DNA of 63,951 nt, the filler included, from Reclinomonas americana ATCC 50394 (lineage: Eukaryota), in the NCBI GenBank assembly GCA_048213135.1. It is 43 parts of 43 records of this genome, joined end to end, with 100 filler letters (N's around TTAATTAATTAA, not from the genome) between each part and the next. Parts side by side here need not be neighbours in the genome. Positions count along the whole stretch, not along the records: positions 26,961 to 28,349 come from AFZH01025696.1; 42 more parts are not named here. The stretch is one strand, 5' to 3'. The position numbers and the translations under genes are program-made. The notes beneath the pieces are model-generated. The model had not been told where the DNA came from and searched no databases. It saw nothing but the letters and a program-made list of their open reading frames with translations. Each line of letters begins with the position of its first letter. The stretch's first letter is position 1. This document shows positions 1 to 59,252 of this stretch, piece after piece.

Positions 1-458
1 GCGTGTGGTCGCTGGAGAGTGGCGCGCTGGTGCGGCAAGTCTGTGCGCATAGGCATAACGTGATGGGCGTTGCGTGCGCGCGCGACAGCGTGCATGTGGT
101 GAGCGCGGGCGCCGATTGCACGGTGCGCGTGCTGTCGATTGCCAGTGGCGAGGAGGTGCAGGTATTGGAGGGCCACACGGATGCTGTCAAGTCGGTGGCG
201 GTCACCGCCGACGGGCAGCACATTGTCAGCTGCGGCCTCGACATGACCGCGCGGGTGTGGAGCACGGCGTACGGACTGGCCGGCCTTGAGGTGGACACGG
301 CGCGCCTGGCCATGAGCGCCGTTCAGGAGATGCAGGATGAGGCGGCGGCGGTGGTGGATTCGCGCTGCCTGCCTGAGATGGTGCTGCGGTGCTTTCTGGT
401 GGAGGAGGCGGAGGTGGTGGCGCGGCGGTGCGCTGCCGAGCCGACGATGCGGTGGTGA
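1..458 (+). CDS. WD40-repeat protein, 3' part; member of the expanded intronless WD40 family with conserved C-terminal tail
   Basis: GHTDAVKSVAVTADGQHIVSCGLDMTARVWS repeat; tail ...DSRCLPEMVLRCFLVEEAEVV shared with 11192..11901 and 27140..28213. Confidence 0.9.
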   Translation, partial: VWSLESGALVRQVCAHRHNVMGVACARDSVHVVSAGADCTVRVLSIASGEEVQVLEGHTDAVKSVAVTADGQHIVSCGLDMTARVWSTAYGLAGLEVDTARLAMSAVQEMQDEAAAVVDSRCLPEMVLRCFLVEEAEVVARRCAAEPTMRW

Positions 459-726
459 GCGGTGAAAGAAATGCTCTTTTTTCTTTTCTCGTTTTTTTCT
501 CGAGATGTGGTGCTTGTCTGAACTCGTTGTCTCCTGTGCGCACCTGGTATATGATAGTTACTGTTTAGTATACTGAGGTTTCTGGAAGAGAAGAACGGAG
601 CAGTCACAATCGTAATCCAATTGTATCTGTCCGTTCTTCTCTTGTTTGTATTCACAAAGAGCAGAAGTTTCTCAAGCAATTTTTTCGTTCTCTCCACGCC
701 CCAAACCCAACCTCCCTCGTCAACTC

Positions 727-1271
727 ATGTCTTCGCAAGACGGCGCAGCCAGCAACACTGGTGCCAAGGGTGCCGGTGATCGTCTCCGTGACGATTTGCC
801 CGCGAGCATGCGCGACATGGCGGTCTCCGCCGTGTCGAGCAACAAGCGTTCCATGCGCTCTCAGTCTGTTGCCTCGCAGCGTTCTTACGCGTCTGCGCCT
901 GTCGTGCAGGGTGAGCGTGAGTCGCTCATGGCGGACTTGGATTCGACCGAGGAGGGGGAGGGCGGGCGTGATCAGGAGACCACCAGTCGCATGGAGGTCT
1001 CTGTCACTTCAAGCTCCCGCCGCGTCGTCGAGTTGCAGGGGCAACTCGAGGAGGTGCAGCGTCAGCTGAAGGCGGCGCAGCAGGCGCAGCATGCGCAGTC
1101 GCCCCCGCTTGTCCCCGTGACGCGAGCGGAGATGCGCCTGCCCCATGGCCAGCAGCAGCCGCTGGCCGACCGCGCTAGCGCTCTCGATGTGCTCCAGCAG
1201 CAGTTCCGGGAGCACCAGCATGCGGTGCAGCAGCTGGTGGAGAAGCAGGAGTCAATCTTGCAGTACCTCGG

Positions 1272-1326
<55 letters not shown>

Positions 1327-1401
1327 CTTCCGCAGCAGCAGCCACTGATGCGCGCCGCGCCGCTCCTGCAGCGACCGCACCCGTCGGCGCAGCCCATGGC
1401 A
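727..1401 (+). CDS. Hypothetical coiled-coil/polyglutamine protein, 5' part
   Basis: Open from ATG 727 to the contig end, GC3-rich codons, coiled-coil segment and Q tract. Confidence 0.55.
1273..1326 (+). repeat. (CAG)n polyglutamine tract
   Basis: About 16 contiguous CAG followed by CAACAG. Confidence 0.95.
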
Positions 1402-3002: not shown

Positions 3003-4163
3003 CCCATTCCGCGAGACGAGGTGTCGCAGGGGTCCAGAGTGGGCCAGCGCTTGTGGCCGAGGCGTCTCGGCAGTCGACGATAGTGGTGGACGGCGGGCTC
3101 GCGGTGACGGAATGTGCCGGAGAGACTCGACCGGCGCCGTCTCCGGATCCGCACCACCACCACCACTAGACGTAGCTGGTGGCGGCGCTGGCGGCGGCAG
3201 TAGAGGATTGCGGCGAGACACAAGCGTGGGCGGTGGTGGCAGAGTCGTCGTCGTCGTTGTTGTCGTCGTCGTCACCGCAGCATTGTCGTGGTGCGGTGAG
3301 GCGGCCGTCGGTGTCGGCGCCGTGCTGTTGCTGAACCGCCGAGCCATGGCCGACACAGGCTGCCGCATCGTCGACGAATCCGCCCGCAACACACCCGCCG
3401 CCGCCGTCGCCGCCGTGGTCGGTGACACGGCATCACGCGGCGACTGCCGCCGCGCATGATGCAACGGCGACAAGTGCAGCACCGGCAGCCTCATCGTCGG
3501 CGTCGCCGTCGCACTGACCGCCATGGACGACGCCGCCGACATTACAGTCATCATCATTGTCGCGTCGTGGCCCTCCGACGACGGAACAATACCAGCCGCA
3601 TCTCCATCCGCCACACTCGGCAACACCGCCGCCGACGTCGACAACGACATGCGCCGCCTCTCCCATGCTGCTACTGGCTGCGGCGGAGGCGGAGGCGGTG
3701 GTGGCGGCGCCTGCACTGGTGGTGGCGACGGAGACGGATCTGTCTGATGCTGCACATGTGCATGCTGCATCACAACTTGCTGATGCAACTGCGACAGCAG
3801 CGTGTGCGGCTGCGGCTGCTGCTGCTGCTGCTGCTGCTGCTGTGGCTGACGATGCCCAGGGAAGCGAAACGAGGCCAGTTGTTGAGTGGACACTGGAGTC
3901 GGTGAGGCCGTCGACAAACGTCTCTGATATGAGAAATACGGATGATGATGGTGTTGTTGCTGTTGCTGTTGTTGATAGTGAAGTAGTAATGAGGCGGCGG
4001 TGGCTGTCGACTGTGCGCGGAGGCGGGAAGAAGAGGTGGGTGTGATGATCGTTGGTGAAATGCAACAAGAGACACACAAATTTAACAAACGCACGTGCTC
4101 GGCACCGGCTGTTGCAGCTGTTGGTCCAGGCAGTGTGCGCACTCGCCACGACAGTGGCTCCAT
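3003..4163 (-). CDS. Low-complexity Q/P/T-rich protein, 5' part (probable intron 4011..4094); allele or paralog of 9002..10177
   Basis: ATG at 4163; indels against the second copy are in-frame (polyQ/polyT length changes). Confidence 0.6.
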
Positions 4164-4502
4164 GGTGAGCGCGCGCGCGCGTCTGTCACACACACACACG
4201 CCCTGCGCGCTGGCACACAAGCACACACACGCACACACACGCAACCAGACACGTGCGCGACCACACCACACCTATGCGATAATAAACACACAATTTCGCA
4301 AATTGTTCGACGTTGCGCTTGTGTGTGTGCTAAGTCAAGACCGCTTTTGTCTCGCCACCCGCGACCACTTGCGGTTCTTTCTGCTATTCGCCTCTGTGGT
4401 GCNNNNNNNNNNNNNNNNNNNNNNNNNNNNNNNNNNNNNNNNNNNNTTAATTAATTAANNNNNNNNNNNNNNNNNNNNNNNNNNNNNNNNNNNNNNNNNN
4501 NN

Positions 4503-4749
4503 GTTCCAGTACGTCGTCGAGACCGAGCGTCGGTTCTATCTGGCCAATGAGGTCAACGTCGTACGCCGCGACACCGAGCACGACTTCTACTTCGAGATCT
4601 CGATGACCGACGTGTGGGTGTGGGACATCTACCGCGCCGACCGCTTCGTCAAGGCCGTGCGGGTGCTCACCTTCAAGGACGTCAATGTCGAGGAGCTCCA
4701 GCGGCGGGAGTTCGAGCTGCCGCAGGAGCTCTCGCTCGACGGCGAGTGA
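4503..4749 (+). CDS. DUF2469 family protein (actinobacterial), 3' part
   Basis: FQYVVETERRFYLAN...DVWVWDIYRADRFVKAVRVLTFKDVNVEEL; usual position upstream of yraN. Confidence 0.9.
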
Positions 4750-4853
4750 CGCCCTCTCTCCACAAGTCTCCGATCGGGGAGTTTCTCCCGAGGCGCCGGG
4801 ACCTTCTCTGATCCTCGCCGCCTCGTGCCGAGACCAGGCGCGAAGCTGTCGGC

Positions 4854-5216
4854 ATGGCAGCGAAGGACGAACTCGGAAGAGCCGGTGAAGAGCGCGCGGC
4901 GCAGCACCTGATCCGGCATGGCTACACCGTGCTGGACCGGAACTGGCGGTGCACGCAGGGCGAGATCGACATCGTCGCGTCGCACGGCGTGCATCTGGCC
5001 GTGGTCGAGGTGAAGACGCGGCGCTCTGCGGCCTTCGGGCACCCGTTCGAGGCGATCGACGATCGGAAGAGGCGGCGTCTCTGGGGTCTCGCCTTCGCCT
5101 GGCGAGCTGAGCACCCCGAACTCGCGCGCGGACTCGATCTGCGCATCGAGGCGATCGGCATCATCGGGGCCGACCCGTCCATCGGTGCGCTCGAGCATCT
5201 CGTGGACATCGCATGA
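4854..5216 (+). CDS. yraN: YraN family (UPF0102) nuclease
   Basis: LGRAGEERAAQHL..GYTVLDRNWRCTQGEIDIVA...VEVKTR motif. Confidence 0.95.
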   Translation: MAAKDELGRAGEERAAQHLIRHGYTVLDRNWRCTQGEIDIVASHGVHLAVVEVKTRRSAAFGHPFEAIDDRKRRRLWGLAFAWRAEHPELARGLDLRIEAIGIIGADPSIGALEHLVDIA

Positions 5217-5901
5217 GCACCGCGCGGACCTGGGCGGTCGCCCTCACCGGCGTCGACGGCCACATGGTCGAGGTCGAGGCCGATCTCTCGAATCAGACTC
5301 CGGAGTTCAAGATCATCGGTCTTCCCGACAAGTCGCTCGGCGAAGCGGTCCAGCGCGTGCACAACGCCTGCAAGAACGCGGGTCTCGACCTCCCGCGGCG
5401 CCGACTCACGGTGAACCTCTCGCCGGCGAGCCTTCCGAAGCACGGCGCGGGGTTCGATCTCGGCATCGCGGTCTCGACGCTGGCCGCCGGCGGCGCGCTC
5501 GAACGCCGTTCGATCGCCGACACCGTCCACATCGGCGAGTTGGGACTCGACGGACGCATCCGGCCGGTCCCCGGCGTCCTGCCCGCGGTGTTCGCGGCGG
5601 CCAGGGCGGGCTTCGAGCGCATCATCGTGCCGAGAGGGAACGAGGCCGAGGCGCGGCTGGTGCCTGGCGTCGAGGTGCGGGCCGCCGGGTCGCTCGCCGA
5701 GGTCGCGGTGTGGCACGGCGCCGACGTCGAGGTGCCCGACATCGATGCCGTCGCGGTGGGCCGTACGGGGCCGACACCGGACCCTGCCCTCGATCTTGCG
5801 GATGTCGTCGGGCAGGATGAGGCTGTCGAAGCACTGATCGTGGCGGCGGCGGGCGGCCATCATCTCCTCCTGAGCGGACCGCCGGGAGCGGGGAAGACGA
5901 T
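5213..5901 (+). CDS. comM: YifB/ComM family Mg-chelatase-like AAA+ ATPase, 5' part
   Basis: IIGLPDKSLGEA, TVNLSPASLPKHGAGFDL, IGELGLDGRIRPVPGVLP, Walker A GPPGAGKT; ATGA overlap with yraN. Confidence 0.93.
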
Positions 5902-9001: not shown

Positions 9002-9242
9002 CCCATTCCGCGAGACGAGGTGTCGCAGGGGTCCCGAGTGGGCCAGCGCTTGTGGCCGAGGCGTCTCGGCAGTCGACGATAGTGGTGGACGGCGGGCTCG
9101 CGGCGACGGAATGTGCCGGAGAGACTCGACCGGCGCCGTCTCCGGATCCGCACCGCCACCACCACTAGACGTAGCTGGTGGCGGCGCTGGCGGCGGCAGT
9201 AGAGGATTGCGGCGAGACACGAGCGTGGGCGGTGGTGGCAGA

Positions 9243-9280
<38 letters not shown>

Positions 9281-9809
9281 CGCAGCATTGTCGTGGTGCG
9301 GTGAGGCGGCCGTCGGCGTCGGCGCCGTGCTATTGCTGAACCGCCGAGCCATGGCCGACACAGGCTGCCGCATCGTCGACGAATCCGCCCGCAACACACC
9401 CGCCGCCGCTGTCGCCGCCGTGGTCGGTGACACGGCATCACGCGGCGACTGCCGCCGCGCATGATGCAACGGCGACAAGTGCAGCACCGGCAGCCTCATC
9501 GTCGGCGTCGCCGTCGCACTGACCGCCATGGACGACGCCGCCGACATTACAGTCATCATCATTGTCGCGTCGTGGCCCTCCGACGACGGAACAATACCAG
9601 CCGCATCTCCATCTGCCACACTCGGCAGCACCGCCGCCGACGTCGACAACGACATGCGCCGCCTCTCCCATGCTGCTACTGGCTGCGGCGGAGGCGGAGG
9701 CGGTGGTGGCGGCGCCTGCACTGGTGGTGGCGACGGAGACGGATCTGTCTGATGCTGCTGTGCATGCTGCATCACAACTTGCTGATGCAACTGCGACAGC
9801 AGCGTGTGC

Positions 9810-9845
<36 letters not shown>

Positions 9846-10177
9846 GGTTGACGATGCCCAGGGAAGCGAAACGAGGCCAGTTGTTGAGTGGACACTGGAG
9901 TCGGTGAGGCCGTCGACAAACGTCTCTGATATGAGAAATACGGATGATGATGGTGTTGTTGTTGCTGTTGCTGCTGTTGCTGTTGTTGATAGTGAAGTAG
10001 TAATGAGGCGGCGGTGGCTGTCGACTGTGCGCGGAGGCGGAAAGAAGAGGTGAGTGTGATGATCGTTGGTGAAATGCAACAAGAGACACACAAATTTAAC
10101 AAACGCACGTGCTCGGCACCGGCTGTTGCAGCTGTTGGTCCAGGCAGTGTGCGCACTCGCCACGACAGTGGCTCCAT
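9002..10177 (-). CDS. Low-complexity Q/P/T-rich protein, second copy (probable allele of 3003..4163)
   Basis: Near-identical to contig 3003..4402 along its whole length. Confidence 0.6.
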
Positions 10178-10501
10178 GGTGAGCGCGCGCGCGCGTCTGT
10201 CACACACACACACGCCCTGCGCGCTGGCACACAAGCACACACGCACACACACGCAACCAGACACGTGCGCGCTATGTGATAATAAAACACACAATTTCAC
10301 AAATTGTTCGACGTTGCGCTTGTGTGTGTGCTAAGTCAAGATCGCTTGTCTCGCCACCCGCGACCACCTGCGGTTCTTTCTGCTATTCGCCTCTGTTGTG
10401 CNNNNNNNNNNNNNNNNNNNNNNNNNNNNNNNNNNNNNNNNNNNNTTAATTAATTAANNNNNNNNNNNNNNNNNNNNNNNNNNNNNNNNNNNNNNNNNNN
10501 N

Positions 10502-10979
10502 CATGCTGACCGTCGGGAGTGACGGCGACACTGAGCACCCAGGCAGTGTGCCCCTCCAACCGTCGCACCTCTTGGCCACTCGCCAGTGACCACACGCGCA
10601 CGGTTCGGTCATAACTCCCACTCAGAATGTGCTGACTGTTGGGAGTAAAGGCAACACACTTCACAAAGTCAGTGTGCCCCTCCAACCGTCGCACCTCTTC
10701 GCTACTCGCCAGTGACCACACGCGCACAGTGTAGTCACCACTACCAATGACACTGTGCTGACTGTCGGGAGAGACAACAACGAAGCCCATTATACTAGAG
10801 TGCCCCACCAACCGTCGCACCTCCTGTCCGGTCGCCAGTGACCACACTCGAAGTATATCGTCGAGACCACCACTCACGACGTGCTGACCATCGGGAGTGA
10901 CAGCAACAGAGTACACCGCGGTAGTGTGTCCAACGAAACGCCTGCAGCGGAAGATGGTGCGTTGCGGGGTGAGTGACAT
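10502..10979 (-). CDS. WD40-repeat family protein, 5' part (downstream member of a tandem pair)
   Basis: ATG 10979 MSLTPQRTIFRCRRFVGHTTAVYSVAVTPDGQHVVSGG; 42-aa repeats, no introns. Confidence 0.9.
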
Positions 10980-11191: not shown

Positions 11192-11901
11192 TTATAAGCA
11201 CGAGTCGGGATCTTCGCTGCGACGATGCAGCACGACCGCGGCATCCTCGACAATGAAACAGCGCAGCACCATCTCCGGCAGGCAGCGGGAGTCCGGTTCC
11301 CCGTCTTCGCCGACAACAGCAGCTGTTCGTTGCATCTTCTGCACGGCCAGTAGGGCCGAACGCGCGCCGTCGAGCTCCAACCGAGCGAGACCACATGGAG
11401 TGGACCACACTCGCACAATGCTGTCGTCGCCTCCACTCACAATGTGCTGCCCATCGGGAGAGACAACGACAGAAATTACTTCGTGAGCGCGTTCCTCCAA
11501 CCGCTGCACTTCCTCTCCACTCGCCAGCGACCACACTCGCACGGTGCCGTCGGCGCACCCGCTGACAATAAACTGGCCATTGGGGGTGACAGCGACACTG
11601 CGCACCCATCTCGTGTGCCCCATCAACCGTCGCACTTCCTCACCAGTCGCCAGTGACCACACTCGCACAGTCTGGTCCCAACTCCCACTCACAACGAACT
11701 GTCCGTCAGGAGTGACGGCGACTGAAACCACTGCATCATCATGTCCCTCTAGACGATGGACTTCGTCGCCTCTCGCCAGTGACCACACAAGCACAGTGCC
11801 GTCGGAACCCCCACTCACAATGTGCTGACCATCGGGAGTGACGACGACAGAGAACACCGGGCATCCGTGCCCCTGGAACAGTCGCACCTCCTTGCCACTC
11901 A
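11192..11901 (-). CDS. WD40-repeat family protein, 3' part with conserved C-terminal tail
   Basis: Four GH..V.SVxVTPDGQ..VSG..D.TVRVWSLA repeats, then STPCGLARLELDGARSAL...RCLPEMVLRCFIVED. Confidence 0.93.
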
Positions 11902-20986: not shown

Positions 20987-22183
20987 ACAATGGGGTGGGA
21001 CACTCTCTTGCCTTGTGCCCTCTCCCTCCACAGTTGAAACACACCGCCTCTTTCTTCTCTTCTCCGCTTTCTCCTCCTCTCTCCTCTTTCTCTTTCTCTG
21101 CTTTACCTCCCTTTCTTCCCTTCCACTCCCTTCTCCCATTCCCATCCCTTCTCTCTTCTCTCTTCTTCGGATTTTTGTCTAGATACATAGCTGTTTCCAT
21201 ACCCTCTCCCAGGGACTTGTTGGTGTAATTGTTGGGGTGCATATCCAGTGATACCTCCACTTGCCACTTGTTGATCATAAATTCCTTGACAAATTGGTAG
21301 TGGTGGGTGAGGTCTGGCTTGAGAACTGTTGCCTCCAGCACCATCTTCTTCCACTTCTCATCTAACCTCTTCAGCAGCATGGATGTCTTCTCCTTGTCCT
21401 CAAAAACCACTCCATACTCTCTCGCCGTCCTCTCCAACTTCTCTAACTTCTCAAATTGGGGGATGGGGTTTTTAGAACTGTCAAAGGCTAGCTGGGCATA
21501 ACGCTCTCTGTGGTTGAGCTGGGCAACATCACCTGTAAAGATGTATCTACTCCTCACCTCTTCTATCACGTCCGCAACATAGTTACACTCCTGGACAAAA
21601 TCCTTCAATCCCACTGGCACACACTCTACTAGCGCTCCACACACTCTCCTATTCATACTCTCCCACTCCACTACTGTTGGTCTCTCATCCCTCCTAACTC
21701 TCTTTCTCCTTGGCTTCCTCTCCCTCTCTATCACCTCCTTCCTAATTCTCTCCTTCTCCTCATACTCATCTCTCTTCTGTATCCACTCATTTAACCCATC
21801 CAAATAAATGTTCTTCGCTTCTGCATACTTGCTCTTGGCCAACATGTAGTTGTCATAGTAGATGGCCTTCTGTCTGGCCTCTGACTCCCTGAGTTCAGTG
21901 TCCGTGGGGATAGGCCTGTAAACAAAAGGTTGGGGGGGGCAGGTTTATTTGGTTTCCTGGGGGAAGGGGCGTCAAATGGGGTGTAGGTGTAGATGGGTAT
22001 AGGGGGGTCACCCTCATCAGGGCTGTAGTTGTCTTCCACTCTCTCCATCTCCTCTCTAGTGTTCAGCACAAAATCCACTCCCTCTGCCTTCAACAAGGCT
22101 CGGAGGCTCTTGATCCAAATATCCACATTTGCACTCTCTCCAAATGGTAAAAGTTTCTTGTTGAATTTGCCTAACTTGACCAT
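20987..22183 (-). mobile_element. LTR retrotransposon gag (Ty1/copia-like) with CCHC zinc knuckle; 1-nt frameshift at the homopolymer 21932..21939
   Basis: N-terminal FGESANVDIWIKSLRALL; UBN2-like DKEKTSMLLKRLDEKWK; CFNCGGRGHKARECP; intronless, purine-rich coding strand. Confidence 0.82.
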
Positions 22184-27139: not shown

Positions 27140-28213
27140 ATGTCGACCTTCACGAGCAGGTGCTTCCGTGCCAAGAGTGCGGTGAACTCTGTTGCCATCA
27201 CTCCAGACGGCCAACGTATTGTCACTGGCTGTGACGATAAGACTGTGCGAGTGTGGTCACTGGCCAGTGGAGAGGAAGTGCAGCGACTGGAGGGGCACCA
27301 CGGATGGGTGCACTGTGTCGCCGTCACTCCCGACGGGCAGCACGTTGTGAGCGGGAGTCGTGATGCGACAGTGCGGGTGTGGTCACTGGCGAGTGGGGAG
27401 GAAGTGCGTCGGATTGACGGACACACTGAGCCAGTGCTGTCCGTTGCCGTTACTCCCGATAGTCAGCATGCTGTGAGTGGGAGTCACGACATGACTGTGC
27501 GCGTGTGGTCGCTTGCCACTGGAGAGGAAGTGTGGCGACTGGATGGGCACACGGGGTCGGTGTTCTCCGTGGCCGTCACTCCCGACGGTCAGCATGTCGT
27601 GAGCGGGAGTGGGGACACGACGATGCGTGTGTGGTCACTGGTGAGTGGCGAGGAGGTGCAAAAGATGATGGGGCACGCTGGTGCGCTGTTCTCTGTCGCT
27701 GTTACTCTCGACGGTCAGCACGTGGTGAGCGGCAGTGACGACAACTCGGTGCGAGTGTGGTCGCTGGCGAGTAGCGAAGAGCTGCGACGGATGGATGGGC
27801 ACACCAAATGTGTGTGGTGTGTTGCCGTAGCTCCCGACGGTCGGCACGTTGTGAGTGCTGGCGGCTATGACAAGACAGCGCACGTGTGGTCACTGGCGAG
27901 TGGAGAAGAAGTGCACCGGTTGGAGGGCCACCCGAAAAATGTGTGGTCTGTTGCCGTCGCACCCGACGGTCAGCATATCGTGAGTGGGTGTGGCGATGGC
28001 CATGGCACCGTACAAGTGTGGAGTACGCCGTTTGGCCTCGCCCCGAAGGAGCTCGATTGTGCGCGGTCGGCCCTGCGCGCTGTGCAGGAGATGCAGGAAG
28101 ACGAAAGCGAGAATCCGCGCTGCCTGGTGGAGATCGTGCTACGCTGTTTCCTGGTCGAAGAGGCAGAGGTCGTGTTGTATCGCAGCTCTGTCGACGTCGA
28201 TCTCCGACAGTGA
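27140..28213 (+). CDS. Complete intronless 7-blade WD40 protein (357 aa) with conserved C-terminal tail
   Basis: Seven 42-aa (126-bp) repeats GHxxxVxSVAVTPDGQHVVSGSxDxTVRVWSLASGEEV; tail STPFGLAPKELDCARSAL...RCLVEIVLRCFLVEEAEVV. Confidence 0.95.
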   Translation: MSTFTSRCFRAKSAVNSVAITPDGQRIVTGCDDKTVRVWSLASGEEVQRLEGHHGWVHCVAVTPDGQHVVSGSRDATVRVWSLASGEEVRRIDGHTEPVLSVAVTPDSQHAVSGSHDMTVRVWSLATGEEVWRLDGHTGSVFSVAVTPDGQHVVSGSGDTTMRVWSLVSGEEVQKMMGHAGALFSVAVTLDGQHVVSGSDDNSVRVWSLASSEELRRMDGHTKCVWCVAVAPDGRHVVSAGGYDKTAHVWSLASGEEVHRLEGHPKNVWSVAVAPDGQHIVSGCGDGHGTVQVWSTPFGLAPKELDCARSALRAVQEMQEDESENPRCLVEIVLRCFLVEEAEVVLYRSSVDVDLRQ

Positions 28214-30031: not shown

Positions 30032-31086
30032 CTCGCTCCCACAGGCGCACCAGCCCATCTACACCACCGGTCACCACGCGCCCATCCAACAGCACCGCCA
30101 CGCCAAACACGGGACCCTCGTGGCCCTCCAGCATCGCCACTGGCCGATTGTTATCCGTGTCTTGCAAATGCCACACCGTGACACGCCCATCTGTGCAACA
30201 GGCAAAGAGTCAGCAGCGAAAAAAGCATCATCGCCACAAGCCGCCATCACCCACCTCGCCCACTGGTCACCAACAGCGAGCAATCCCGCGACACCGCCAC
30301 CGCATCCACCGTCCTCGCATGCGCCTTGAGCACCGCACGCAGACCGCCACTCGCCAACGACCACAGCGCCACCAACCCCTTACCATGCCCCGTCACCACC
30401 AGTTCCCCACCCTCACACGCCACCATTGACCGCACCGAGCGACCCACCCCCGGCACCAGCACATTCACCACCGAACCCGTCTCCAACGTCCACACCACCA
30501 CTCTCCGATCCCTCCGGCCTCCACTGACCACCCACCGCTCATCCGGCGTCACCGCCACCGCGCCTACACCACCAACATGCGCCGCACGCACCACCCACTC
30601 ACCCACACAACTCAACACCCCATCTCCTCCTGCACCAACCACCACACACCGTCCCGACGCCACCACCGCCATGACCGTCACCTCCTCACAATGCAAATAC
30701 TCCAACGACCGGCTCCACTCCGGCACCTCCACGCGTCTCTGCCGCACCACCATCGGCCACAGATCCCACAACTGCACAGTGGAGTCGCCGCCCAACAACA
30801 CCACCAGTCGCGTGGCATCAGTCGGCACAAAGGCGCACGCCTTGATCGGTGCCTGCATGAACACCTCGCCCAGCTGCTCACATGCACTGCTGCTCACGTG
30901 CCATATGTAGAGGAGAGTGCCGGAGGAGGCGGCGATGGCGAGCAGTTGCGTGTTGGCGGAGGGTGTGGGCGGGAGAGCGGGCGAGGTGGTGAGTGTGGTG
31001 ATGGGCGCGTCGCGGTGGTGGAGGAGTGTGTGGGTGATGTGCATGCGGGGAGGCGCGGGTGGGGCGATCGAGGCGCCGCAGCCCAT
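30032..31086 (-). CDS. WD40-repeat protein with N-terminal MGCGAS acylation motif, 5' part, spliced
   Basis: MGCGAS; AHVGGVGAVAVTPDERWVVSGGRRD; GHEGPVFGVAVLLDGRVVTGGVDGLVRLW. Confidence 0.82.
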
Positions 31087-31178
31087 TGGATACGTAGGAA
31101 TGTCCGTCGGTGTGGGACTTGTCGCGCAGATATTGTGTGTGTGAGAAGCATGGAGGCGCCGGTGAGTGTGTGAGGAAT

Positions 31179-31261
<83 letters not shown>

Positions 31262-31428
31262 GACGTACGACGTACGTACGTACGTACGTACGTACGTACG
31301 TACGTACGGTACGGTACGGTACGGTACGNNNNNNNNNNNNNNNNNNNNNNNNNNNNNNNNNNNNNNNNNNNNTTAATTAATTAANNNNNNNNNNNNNNNN
31401 NNNNNNNNNNNNNNNNNNNNNNNNNNNN

Positions 31429-31860
31429 CTGCCGCCAATCACAGCGTTGCCCGCCGCACTCACATTGCCGGCTGTCGTAAAGCTGCCACCAGTCACAAGA
31501 CCAGTCACCGTCTCGCTACCGCCAATCACAGCGTTGCCCGCCGCACTCACATTGCCGGCCGTCGTAAAGCTGCCACCAGTCACAAGACCAGTCACCGTCT
31601 CGCTGCCGCCAATCACAGCGTTGCCCGCCGCACTCAAATTGCCGGCTGTCGTAAAGCTGCCGCCAGTCACAAGACCAGTTACCGTCTCGCTGCCGCCAAT
31701 CACAGAGTTGCCCGCCGCGCTCAGGTTACCGGCCGTCGTCAGACTGCCGCCAGTCACAAGACCAGTCACCGTTGCAGTGCCGCCGACAACTGCATTGCCT
31801 GCCACGCTCAAGTTGCCAGCCGAAGTCAGACTACCGCCGCTAATCAAGCCAGACGTGCTC
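31429..31860 (-). repeat. 87-bp coding tandem repeat, about 5 copies, truncated by the contig end
   Basis: Near-identical units containing ccgccaatcacagcgttgcccgccgcactc. Confidence 0.92.
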
Positions 31861-32920: not shown

Positions 32921-34290
32921 GGGTCGCGAAGAAACAAGTGGTGGCGGGGAAGGGGCGGCGGCAGAGTATGTTGTGCGCGGACTGCTTCCGTTCGTGGTCA
33001 GCACTTGCCACGCAGGTGGCGACACCACGCCTGCGCCGTGTGTGTACGTGGGTGGTGGGGACGCAAAGAGTGGCCCGTTGGGCAGTTGTTGTTCGCGAGC
33101 GCCAAATGACTTGGCGGTGCCGAGCGGAACAGTGGTGGAGTGAGGTGGAGGCGCACTCGGACGGCGTGGTGGTGACTTGCCGGGTCGCGAGGCATTCCAT
33201 GAATCTGCGTGTACACACCCACCCATTCAGCAGCCCATCATGCATTCGTTTCCACCCCGCTCACACGTACCGTATGTGGACAAAATGTCGCGGTGTGCTG
33301 CGCGACTGGTCTCGCCGTCGCCCGACACGACCACACCACGCAACGACGACGACGACGACGACGACGAGCCGTCGGTGAGTGTCAGCGGCGATCGCGGGGA
33401 CGAGAACAGTGGACCACCCCGGGACTGTGGAGGTGTTCCGGCACCGGCTGTGCGCGCATGCGAGAAGGGGGATCAGGCACAGTAGCGACGATCATATCAC
33501 GGACAAAGACAACGCAACTGGCCAGCAGCGCGTCCTGCAGAATGTTCTTGATACGCGAGGCCGACTCCTCCGGTGAGAGGTTGCGCTGGCCGGGGTTGGC
33601 GAGCTCGACCGACAGTGCACTCAGCGTCTGCTTCAGGTGCTCCAGCTGCTGGTTGGTGGCAGCGGGCGATGGCGACGACGCAGGCGGAATGGCGGGGCCT
33701 GGCGACAGTGGCGACATGTGCCCAGGTCGAGTGACTGTCGACGATAATCGACCTCCACTGCGCTCCAAATTGAACGTGGTGGAGTCGGCGACGCCGGCGG
33801 GCAGCGCCGAAAACGTGACCACCGTCGACGATCGCGCTTCCGGTCGGCTGCTCAACCCGTTCGACTCACTGGCGGCAGACGATTGCGGCGACTGACGCTG
33901 CCGCGAAGGGGCGCGCAGTCGCTGCACAGTCGAGTGCGGCAGTGGTGGGGGCGAGAGGCTGTGCGAGAGTCAGCAAACACGAGTCAAGGAGGCACACCAC
34001 GCACGTGCGTGCGCGCAACTGAATCGGCGGTCCTCCACTGGCAATATCGCGCAGGCGCGCAGCACGGTCACGCTCCTCCACCAACTCTTTGCGCAAAATG
34101 TCTAGCTCGCGCTTGTTGTTCTCCAGACCGCGCTGCAGACGCATAATGGTCTCCGACGAGTCCGCCAGCGTCGGCAAGAATCCGCTGTCGCGATACGTGA
34201 GCGGGTCTGGCACTGACTCGCGCCTCCCACCGCGAGGCATCGACCACGAGTCGTCGTAGTCGGTGGCCAAGTCACCGAGCGACATTGGTC
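32921..34290 (-). CDS. Disordered protein with short coiled coils, spliced, internal; allele of 46306..47667
   Basis: IMRLQRGLENNKRELDILRKELVEER; SNPs against the second copy include synonymous changes in the predicted frame, and an 8-nt indel lies in an intron. Confidence 0.6.
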
Positions 34291-34453
34291 CTGCACGATA
34301 CAACACAAGGGNNNNNNNNNNNNNNNNNNNNNNNNNNNNNNNNNNNNNNNNNNNNTTAATTAATTAANNNNNNNNNNNNNNNNNNNNNNNNNNNNNNNNN
34401 NNNNNNNNNNNGCGTCACCACCATCATCTCCGGAACCGTGGGTTCCATCCATC

Positions 34454-47667: not shown

Positions 47668-48009
47668 CTGCACGATACAAGACACGGGNNNNNNNNNNNN
47701 NNNNNNNNNNNNNNNNNNNNNNNNNNNNNNNNTTAATTAATTAANNNNNNNNNNNNNNNNNNNNNNNNNNNNNNNNNNNNNNNNNNNNCTCCCTCTCTCG
47801 CTTACTCTCTCTCTCTCGTTGCTCCCCCTCTCGCTGCTCCCCCTCTCGCTGCTCCCCCTCGCTGCTCTCGCTGCTCCCCCTCTGACCTCCTTCCATTTGT
47901 CTCACTTCCCTCACCCCTCTCTTCTCCTTACTGCTCCCCCTCTGACCTCCTTCCATTTTTCTCCCATCCCTCACCCCTTTCCTCACCTCTCCTTCTCTCT
48001 CCGCTACAG

Positions 48010-58197: not shown

Positions 58198-59252
58198 CCC
58201 CTGGTCACTGGGTCGAGCTCCGAGGCCTCGGTGGACGAGGAGAAGCGGTTGCATGCACTCGACGATGAGAACCACGAGGTGATTGTGGCTATGTGTGTGG
58301 AGTTGGCGCGGCAGGCGCGTGAGGAAGCCGAGCGCAAGCTGCGTGAACGACGACGCAAGATGATCAAATGCGACGGGTGTGGCGCGCTGCTCGACGGTCA
58401 GTGTCGGACCGCTCACCTCGAGTTTGGTGATGTGCTGAATGCTTTTTGTGCGTGTGTGTACAGATGGCGATGCATTCCAGATGCACTGCGGCGAGGTTGA
58501 GCACAGCGACGATTTCATGTACACGTGCTCGGAGGTGGAGATTGTGGAGGCTGGCGACGATGCGCCACCCGAGGATCGACTTGACTTGACGTCACCGAAT
58601 GTGTTTCCTTTCTGTTGCGTCCCTCTCTTCTTCATCTTCTTCTGTGTAGATCTGCTGCTCACGAGTGTGTGCGCGACACAGACAACACCTACTCACAGGT
58701 CAGTCGCACAGCAGCGCATTCACGTCGATCCCAGTCCCCTCACATCCCTTTAACTGCAGCCATTTTCGAACTTTTTCGCCTCGCCAGTCACGATCGATGG
58801 ACTCGAGTTCCCCACGGTCGAGCACTTTTGGTGCGTGTGCACTCGCTCTGCACTCTCTTGTATCTTACCACACATCATCACTCCTCCCCTCCGAATGCAG
58901 GCAATGGAGCAAGTACGCCGCCGGCAACGCGGCGATCGCAGAGAGCATCCGCACCGCAAAATCGGTGGACGACGCTCACCAACTCGGCGGCGCGCCCAAC
59001 GAGGGTCTGCGGGAGGACTGGGACGACGTCAAACGCGACATTGCTCTCACGGGTCTGCGCGCCAAGTTCACGCAGCATGCTGAGCTGGCGGCGCAGCTGT
59101 TGGAGACGGGCGACAAGCAGCTCGTGCTCCTCGATACCAATCTCTGGGCGGGTATCAACGCCGGCAGTGGCATTCCCGTCGGCAAGAACACCATTGGTCA
59201 GCTGCTGGAGATTGTGCGCGGTGAACTGCGTGCCGCCGTTGCTGCTCCGTGA
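58198..59252 (+). CDS. OTU1/YOD1-like C-terminal region + C2H2 zinc finger fused to a NADAR (YbiA-like) domain; exons 58198-58396, 58464-58613, 58682-58698, 58760-58830, 58901-59252
   Basis: Spliced frame PLV...CVELARQAREE...IKCDGCGALLDDGDAFQMHCGEVEH (C-x2-C-x12-H-x5-H), then FYNTYSQPFSNFFASPVTIDG..FPTVEHFWQWSKY...REDWDDVK...AKFTQH..L...LLETG...GKNTIGQLL. Confidence 0.82.

What the first reader, a model, noticed from the sequence alone, without database searches (positions are those of the whole stretch)
27140..28213. Expanded intronless WD40 family with homogenised repeats and hypervariable surface positions: candidate diversifying recognition receptors
Seen: four members in 43 contigs (1..458, 10502..10979, 11192..11901, 27140..28213), all intronless in an intron-rich genome. 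The 126-bp repeats are very similar within and between genes (the 1..458 copy is more diverged), but residues after GH and around S-x-D-x change in almost every blade (HGW.H/RDA, TEP.L/HDM, TGS.F/GDT, AGA.F/DDN, TKC.W/YDK, PKN.W; DDA.V/WDQ, TRW.R/ADG, TDF.K/YDR). Known: these top-face propeller positions are the ones diversified in the concertedly evolving WD repeats of Podospora HNWD (HET-E/HET-D) non-self receptors. Here the complete gene has no NACHT or effector domain, only a propeller and a ~60-aa tail. Inference: a stand-alone, repeat-shuffling recognition family, possibly for bacteria or viruses.
Basis: partly seen in the sequence, partly recalled or inferred. Interest (0 to 1): 0.72.

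Follow-up and report, generated by a model that had tools for sequence, protein, structure and literature searches.

The report
Thousand-copy variable WD40 propeller family
A free-living flagellate-like protist carries about a thousand copies of one small propeller-shaped protein gene whose gripping face differs from copy to copy while a short, previously undescribed tail stays fixed, which looks like a large library of binders, possibly for defence, though what they bind is unknown.

Summary
The ORF is real: 357 aa, seven WD40 blades plus a two-helix tail. The variable residues are exactly the four Podospora HNWD top-face sites. They change 5-8 times faster than the scaffold, but dN/dS is 1.9 against gene-wide and 1.0 against local silent rates: diversifying selection is likely but shown only in one of two young subfamilies. 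Repeats are not homogenised within genes (2 of 1,515 pairs at least 85% identical); instead close paralogues are blade mosaics (11 of 29 pairs). The same genome holds at least 134 intronless NACHT-pentapeptide-WD40 genes with a sister repeat that is clearly selected at these sites. The tail is strongly conserved and nearly orphan; nearest named relative a Reclinomonas americana EST. Best reading: an NLR-type sensor propeller uncoupled from NACHT and fixed to a shared docking tail. Not an HNWD member. The scan noted this family before on other DNA of this genome. Ligand and partner untested.

The parts
27140..28213 (+). Complete intronless gene, 357 aa: seven-blade WD40 propeller plus C-terminal helical tail
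   Evidence: Open frame ATG..TGA; PF00400 7 stretches, E 2e-72; model pLDDT 91, pTM 0.86
27152..28021 (+). WD40 propeller (residues about 5-294): a closing N-terminal strand, a partial first repeat and six 126-bp units from 27257
   Evidence: 28 strands in the model; best fold match PkwA WD40 5yzv, TM 0.97 on target, 42% identity
27305..27367 (+). Example of the four hypervariable codons in one blade (residues 56, 58, 74, 76 = unit positions 17, 19, 35, 37); the same four recur every 126 bp
   Evidence: Entropy; secondary structure places them in the d-a loop/start of strand a and the b-c loop; spacing as in Paoletti 2007
28022..28210 (+). Family-specific tail, about 60 aa: helix - acidic loop - helix, with a near-invariant LRCF..E core
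   Evidence: Helices 297-321 and 328-351 (alone); five positions 100% conserved in 164 genes; dN/dS 0.24, second helix 0.13; no family or fold assigned
3..458 (+). Paralogue, 3' part (two more diverged blades + tail), cut by the contig start
   Evidence: (tail profile E 6e-29)
10502..10979 (-). Paralogue, 5' part (ATG at 10979, three blades), cut by the contig end
11192..11901 (-). Paralogue, 3' part (blades + tail), upstream head-to-tail neighbour of the 10502..10979 copy
   Evidence: (tail profile E 8e-29)

Best explanation
A very large, tandemly amplified family of cytosolic binding adaptors in a probable jakobid. Each protein is one seven-blade WD40 propeller whose top face is unique to the copy, joined to a constant two-helix tail. 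Shown: the architecture, the size of the family, purifying selection on scaffold and tail, fast change of the four top-face residues, and in-register recombination between paralogues that recombines blades into new faces. Inferred: all blades descend from one bacterial-type repeat unit related to that of the genome's NACHT-WD40 (NLR-like) genes; the propeller binds a variable, probably foreign, protein; the tail docks every member on one shared host partner, so that binding is converted into one common outcome. The likeliest outcome, by analogy with the nematode F-box expansions, is delivery to a ubiquitin ligase or other removal pathway; relay to the NLR-like proteins is the alternative.
For: 1,029 tail matches, control 0; pattern finds 121 of 164 intact genes, so the true count is probably higher. 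164 intact of 192 assessable among 238 sampled tails. 92 of 95 neighbour pairs co-oriented, median spacing 1,390 bp. Scaffold dN/dS 0.24-0.26, tail 0.24. 561 distinct four-residue combinations in 614 blades. Four sites: dN/dS 1.94 vs gene-wide dS in 164 genes, 1.46 with multi-base changes allowed; 39 close pairs 1.27 (95% 1.13-1.43); one young subfamily of 14 genes 2.07 with local dS, p 0.001. Trp, a one-codon residue, is 23% and 14% at sites 17 and 19. 11 of 29 close pairs are blade mosaics at p<0.01; silent divergence beside loops with multi-base changes is 1.49x the pair mean, 0.57x beside unchanged loops. Position-specific silent codons are shared by all six blades, 0.56-0.57 vs 0.42 at saturation. 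At least 134 NACHT genes with the same repeat consensus and same variable sites, selected there (4.9 gene-wide, 1.82 local, p 4e-5). An EST-derived member exists in Reclinomonas americana, 80% identical to the best sampled copies.
Against: With site-specific silent rates the family-wide dN/dS at the four sites is 0.90-1.00 (1.12, p 0.1, with multi-base changes); close pairs 0.88 (0.75-1.01); the 5 allele-like pairs give 0.47 (0.11-1.2); a second young subfamily gives 1.04 and three random subsets no significant excess; a per-codon mixture flags no propeller codon at posterior >0.9. Recombination, shown here, can inflate dN/dS. The tail matches no F-box, SOCS-box or other Pfam family in 27 members and is modelled as a plain hairpin. 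Only 3 Skp1/Elongin C-type matches among 9 candidates: no visible expansion of these partners. No exchange with the NACHT repeats in the sample (maximum 84% identity). No ligand, partner, localisation or induction data.
Confidence: 0.5

Rival explanations
1. A birth-and-death family under relaxed constraint: the fold and tail are kept, but the top-face residues drift at about the neutral rate and are scrambled by recombination; the proteins act redundantly (dosage, scaffolding or weak multivalent binding) with no arms race.
For: Local dN/dS about 1 at the four sites; allele-like pairs below 1; changes come in tracts with silent changes; Hu et al. 2017 report diverse hotspot sites in highly repetitive WD40 proteins generally (section read).
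Against: About a thousand mostly intact copies with scaffold dN/dS 0.25 need a reason to be kept; dN exceeds gene-wide dS in every analysis except the allele-like pairs; significant local excess in one subfamily and at site 17; only five of 42 positions are free although many more are surface-exposed.
Confidence: 0.27
2. Detached sensors, decoys or regulators of the genome's NACHT-WD40 receptors: the propellers capture the same class of ligands and either pass the signal to, or buffer, the NLR-like proteins through the tail.
For: Same repeat consensus and variable sites in both families; 65 of 221 NACHT units have their nearest neighbour among stand-alone units; both families share several contigs.
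Against: The two repeat pools are mostly separate on the tree (65 label changes vs 195 shuffled) and silent codon preferences do not agree more than by chance (20 of 36 vs 17.5, p 0.15); the tail is absent from the four NACHT C-termini tested and the fifth complete one ends in the same other motif; propeller-plus-tail proteins with unrelated, non-repetitive blades exist in other organisms, so the tail predates this repeat.
Confidence: 0.13
3. The size and mosaicism are largely artefacts of a fragmented assembly (uncollapsed haplotypes, chimeric joins of repeats).
For: 16,441 contigs; allele-like pairs at 97-98% on different contigs; two other contig pairs in the window are 96% and 98% identical; repeats of 126 bp are hard to assemble (passage).
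Against: 129 of 164 sampled genes have no sampled relative above 85% and only 10 have one at 95% or more; mosaic blades are mostly 94-99%, not 100%, identical; halving the count still leaves about 500 loci.
Confidence: 0.1

Closest known systems
Podospora anserina HNWD/NWD NLRs (HET-D, HET-E, HET-R); Paoletti et al. 2007 PMC1805685, Ament-Velasquez et al. 2025 PMC12222747 (passages read)
   Same: 126-bp WD40 units; the same four top-face codons vary; repeats are exchanged between genes; many residue combinations.
   Different: No HET or NACHT domain; one propeller of fixed seven blades; within-gene identity about 68% not 80-100%; exchange mostly in register between paralogues; selection weaker; about 1,000 genes against 10; novel tail.
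Moderately repetitive WD40 proteins of prokaryotes, fungi and protists (Hu et al. 2017 PMC5587647, abstract and sections 9 and 11 read); PkwA WD40 domain, PDB 5yzv
   Same: Internal identity median 0.62; (S/T)PDG-type repeat; best outside hits, up to 56% identity, carry bacterial names where named (Nostoc, Anaerolineae, Microcoleus); best fold match 5yzv.
   Different: Those are single or few genes, usually fused to kinases, TIR or NTPases; none of the 120 listed hits showed the tail in the profile search; no thousand-copy stand-alone family is described in the sections read.
Nematode F-box gene expansions (PMC8665587, passages read) and WD40-SOCS-box adaptors WSB1/2 (recalled)
   Same: Hundreds to over a thousand tandem paralogues; constant small helical module under purifying selection plus a fast-changing binding domain; proposed to catch foreign proteins. 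WSB has the same order, propeller then box.
   Different: The tail is not recognised as F-box or SOCS box and does not fit the recalled BC-box spacing; binding to Skp1 or Elongin C is untested; no comparable Skp1 expansion seen.
The genome's own HEPN-like/NACHT/pentapeptide/WD40 genes
   Same: Intronless, same repeat consensus, same variable sites.
   Different: About 1,400 aa, 11-14 repeats, more internal homogeneity (148 of 773 within-gene pairs at least 80% vs 19 of 1,515), stronger selection, different C-terminus.

Membership tests
Fungal HNWD/NWD NLRs | Central NACHT domain | tested here: not met
   357-aa gene is propeller + tail; longer open frames in other copies are non-coding upstream sequence or gaps
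Fungal HNWD/NWD NLRs | N-terminal HET or other effector domain | tested here: not met
   Start codon lies within about 20 residues of blade 1 in most of 67 genes listed
Fungal HNWD/NWD NLRs | High internal conservation, 80-100% between repeats of a gene | tested here: not met
   19 of 1,515 within-gene pairs at least 80%, 2 at least 85%, mean 68.5%
Fungal HNWD/NWD NLRs | Repeat exchange within and between genes | tested here: inconclusive
   Between genes in register: 11 of 29 close pairs mosaic. Across positions: 8 of 177 units with a neighbour at 85% or more, one pair at 94%. No clustering by gene
Fungal HNWD/NWD NLRs | Variable residues at the four top-face codons | tested here: met
   Positions 17, 19, 35, 37 match the 7/9 and 25/27 pairs
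Fungal HNWD/NWD NLRs | Strong positive selection at these codons | tested here: inconclusive
   1.94 vs gene-wide dS, 1.00 vs local dS; significant in one of two subfamilies
Fungal HNWD/NWD NLRs | Non-self recognition leading to cell death | not testable with these tools
   Needs genetics or biochemistry
Moderately repetitive WD40 proteins (Hu et al. 2017) | Internal identity 0.4-0.7 | tested here: met
   Median 0.62, range 0.43-0.75 over 105 genes, by mean pairwise identity of blades 2-7, which may differ from the paper's measure
Cullin-RING substrate adaptors (F-box, SOCS/VHL box) | Constant small helical box plus variable binding domain in an expanded family | tested here: met
   Tail dN/dS 0.24 (second helix 0.13), top face about 1-2
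Cullin-RING substrate adaptors (F-box, SOCS/VHL box) | Recognisable F-box or BC-box/cullin-box sequence or fold | tested here: inconclusive
   No hit in 27 tails, PDB profile or fold searches, which return generic hairpins at Z up to 9
Cullin-RING substrate adaptors (F-box, SOCS/VHL box) | Binding to Skp1, Elongin C or a cullin | not tested

The most novel reading that the evidence does not exclude
An early-branching free-living protist has a two-tier intracellular recognition system built on one bacterial-type WD40 repeat: over a hundred NLR-like HEPN-NACHT-WD40 receptors plus about a thousand NACHT-free propellers, diversified by in-register recombination and selection, that carry a new kind of adaptor box coupling recognition of foreign proteins to one shared effector such as a ubiquitin ligase.
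Probability: 0.25. Interest if true: 0.85.

Novelty: new variant of a known kind. Interest (0 to 1): 0.6.

Why it matters
How free-living protists recognise intracellular bacteria, viruses or kin is almost unknown. A repertoire of this size (about 1% of the assembly), with four well-defined variable residues per blade and one constant tail, makes the question testable: one pull-down with the tail should name the shared partner, and the propellers can be screened for ligands. It also shows HNWD-like diversification outside fungi and uncoupled from a NACHT switch, and offers about a thousand natural variants of one symmetric propeller scaffold.

Tried and rejected
Tail identity: no Pfam family in 27 members at useful E, no PDB sequence match, no Foldseek match at E<=0.001, only generic hairpins by VIA-align, no usable ESM Atlas hit for two tails; these blanks do not show a new fold. 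By-eye comparison with recalled F-box, BC-box, cullin-box, H-box and UIM consensus gave only a loose hydrophobic-Pro-xx-hydrophobic-xxx-hydrophobic fit in the second helix; not used as evidence. The fourth profile hit (P0004, E 8e-4) is a short-repeat protein and was dropped. Fusion to other domains: six copies with long open frames were fetched; the extra length is non-coding or gaps. Ongoing exchange with NACHT repeats: not found. RNA runs: no RNA holder listed. Complex prediction of tail with the Elongin C-like protein: tool not available, no result. Unit-tree selection tests on random subsets are saturated and one of three did not converge. Literature: ten searches (terms combining WD40 with HNWD, Reclinomonas, jakobid, protist expansion, NACHT/pentapeptide, protist immunity, Reticulomyxa, massive expansion) listed no paper on this family; for papers other than the four named I saw only listings and abstract starts; subscription journals and supplements were not seen and could hold a description in a jakobid genome paper.

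Full report
Observation. The window is 43 small contigs joined by linkers. 27140..28213 (+) is one open frame of 357 aa with seven WD40 repeats and about 60 further residues. AlphaFold on a 45-member alignment gives a seven-blade propeller followed by two helices, mean pLDDT 91; the best solved match is the bacterial PkwA WD40 domain 5yzv. The three other window members are real fragments cut by contig ends, two of them head-to-tail on one contig.

Size and layout. A 23-base degenerate pattern for the tail core matches 1,029 times in the 108-Mb genome, reversed control 0; it finds 121 of 164 intact genes in my sample, so the assembly may hold about 1,400 copies, while uncollapsed alleles could cut the number of loci by up to half (allele-like pairs). 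A pattern for the repeat matches 2,621 times. I fetched a non-random sample (hits to the query, pattern hits on large contigs, hits to two outside relatives): 238 distinct tails, of which 164 have seven intact blades in frame, 28 fewer (broken, short or diverged), 32 touch gaps and 14 locus edges. Neighbours are co-oriented in 92 of 95 pairs, median spacing 1,390 bp. One subfamily appears to begin with a tiny exon and a short intron; otherwise the genes are intronless, whereas the Skp1 and Elongin C-like genes inspected have introns. No copy examined carries another domain.

Variable sites. Entropy peaks at unit positions 16, 17, 19, 35 and 37. The pairs 17/19 and 35/37 have the spacing of codons 7/9 and 25/27 that Paoletti et al. 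2007 found selected in Podospora and placed on the d-a and b-c loops of the top face (passages); the model's strands put them in the same loops. I therefore took these four as sites fixed in advance. 561 different combinations occur in 614 blades.

Selection. My own codon model (MG94-type, fixed tree) on 105 genes gave dN/dS 0.26 for the scaffold, 0.24 for the tail (0.13 for its second helix) and, for the four sites, 1.72 against gene-wide dS but 0.90 with their own dS; a per-codon mixture flagged no propeller codon. On 164 genes: 1.94 and 1.00; allowing multi-base changes 1.46 and 1.12 (p 0.1), site 17 alone 1.59 (p 0.004), and the multi-base rate at these sites is 1.5 against 0.23 elsewhere. 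Counting in 39 independent close pairs gave 1.27 (1.13-1.43) and 0.88 (0.75-1.01); the 5 allele-like pairs 0.47. On repeat-unit trees one young subfamily (14 genes) gave 2.07 with local dS (p 0.001), another (15 genes) 1.04, three random subsets no significant excess. So the sites change at or somewhat above the neutral rate; diversifying selection is probable but not shown family-wide.

Shuffling. Units do not cluster by gene (566 label changes vs 574 shuffled) and only 2 of 1,515 within-gene pairs reach 85%, so there is no HNWD-type homogenisation. Mean identity is the same for matching and non-matching blade positions (0.67-0.70), and all blades share position-specific silent codons (0.56-0.57 vs 0.42 at saturation; neighbouring-base effects may contribute): the propeller was built from one repeat unit before the family radiated. 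Recent relationships are in register: of 177 units with a neighbour at 85% or more, 169 pair with the same blade of another gene, 4 with another position (one pair 94%), 4 within the gene. 11 of 29 close pairs are mosaics, for example 85% in blades 2-3 and 99-100% in blades 5-7, and silent divergence rises beside loops with multi-base changes (1.49x vs 0.57x). Crossing-over or conversion between paralogues therefore recombines faces; assembly chimeras cannot be excluded for single cases.

A sister family. The DNA search also returned an intronless 1,424-codon frame: N-terminal region, NACHT (PF05729 over cut-off), pentapeptide repeats, 14 WD40. 100 of 100 scored relatives are 84-100% identical in the NACHT region (244 candidates) and a P-loop pattern matches 134 times. 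28 of 30 N-termini hold an R-x4-H motif as in HEPN RNases (Pfam only E 0.08). Their repeats share consensus and variable sites with the stand-alone family, are more homogeneous, and are clearly selected (4.9 gene-wide, 1.82 local, p 4e-5; sites 17, 19, 35 each significant). The two pools are related but mostly separate (65 changes vs 195 shuffled, maximum 84%; codon agreement p 0.15). They do not carry the tail.

The tail. A profile search of 1.84 billion representatives gave 4 hits: an EST-derived member from the jakobid Reclinomonas americana, 80% identical to the best sampled copies, which suggests the genome is a jakobid and that members are transcribed there; two unnamed proteins with diverged, non-repetitive propellers and a clear tail that have no close copy in this genome; and one spurious hit. 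The propeller-plus-tail design is thus older than the repetitive propeller. The propeller's best outside hits are repetitive WD40 proteins, bacterial where named, up to 56% identity. The tail has five invariant residues in 164 genes, folds as a hairpin and matches nothing specific.

Mechanism. Shown: constant scaffold and tail, variable top face, tandem amplification, in-register recombination. Inferred: each propeller binds a different partner and the tail links all to one shared component. The pattern is that of nematode F-box expansions (PMC8665587, passages), which makes ubiquitin-mediated removal of foreign proteins the likeliest outcome, but the tail is not a recognisable box, Skp1/Elongin C genes do not look expanded (3 matches of 9 candidates), and binding could not be tested. 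Rivals: relaxed drift in a redundant family (0.27), decoys or helpers of the NACHT receptors (0.13), assembly artefact (0.10).

Standing. It works like the HNWD sensor domain but is not a member of that family; it fits the moderately repetitive WD40 class of Hu et al. 2017. Ten literature searches listed no description of the family. Earlier reports of this scan describe single arrays of it in the same genome and disagree on selection; this report adds the genome-wide count, the mosaic test that explains the disagreement between gene-wide and local dN/dS, and the comparison with the NACHT family. Verdict: real, new variant of a known kind, interest 0.6.

Noticed in passing
L031:69-4343 (-) and L071-L100, L152-L155: At least 134 intronless NACHT-pentapeptide-WD40 genes, 84-92% identical in the NACHT region, with an N-terminal R-x4-H (HEPN-like) motif in 28 of 30, present in two versions, and positively selected WD40 top faces.
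   Followed up: partly
L121:1498-1872 (+): Diverged Elongin C-like gene (34% to an animal Elongin C in BLASTP) with a 66-nt intron that is in frame and stop-free.
   Followed up: partly
L051, L052, L056-L058, L060, L061: Subfamily with wider spacing (3-6 kb), a probable four-codon first exon plus short intron, long conserved flanks and the clearest positive selection.
   Followed up: partly
L062:3457-4957 (+): Three tail motifs at about 350-bp spacing with little or no propeller in frame: duplicated 3' fragments.
   Followed up: no
L018, L019, L063:3441-5030: Members whose later blades have diverged strongly from the repeat consensus while the tail is intact.
   Followed up: no
window 3003-4402 vs 9002-10401; 32922-34311 vs 46307-47688: Two pairs of contigs 96% and 98% identical: uncollapsed alleles or a repeated element; long frames without Pfam hit in the first pair.
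   Followed up: no
window 4503-5901: Contig of 69% GC with an unbroken ChlI/Lon_C/Mg-chelatase-type frame at 5111-5899, bacterial in style: contaminant or transfer.
   Followed up: no
window 20988-21944 (-): Copia-type gag with zinc knuckle on a 48% GC contig.
   Followed up: no
window 30250-31326 (-): A further, ordinary diverged WD40 frame, not of this family (no tail hit).
   Followed up: no
window 616-1401 (+): Frame with coiled-coil-like and poly-Q stretches directly downstream of the 3..458 member; no Pfam hit.
   Followed up: no
window 31429-31838: Tandem repeat of about 87 bp inside long open frames on both strands, no Pfam hit.
   Followed up: no
window 58650-59249 (+): NADAR-like domain, E 2e-14.
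   Followed up: no
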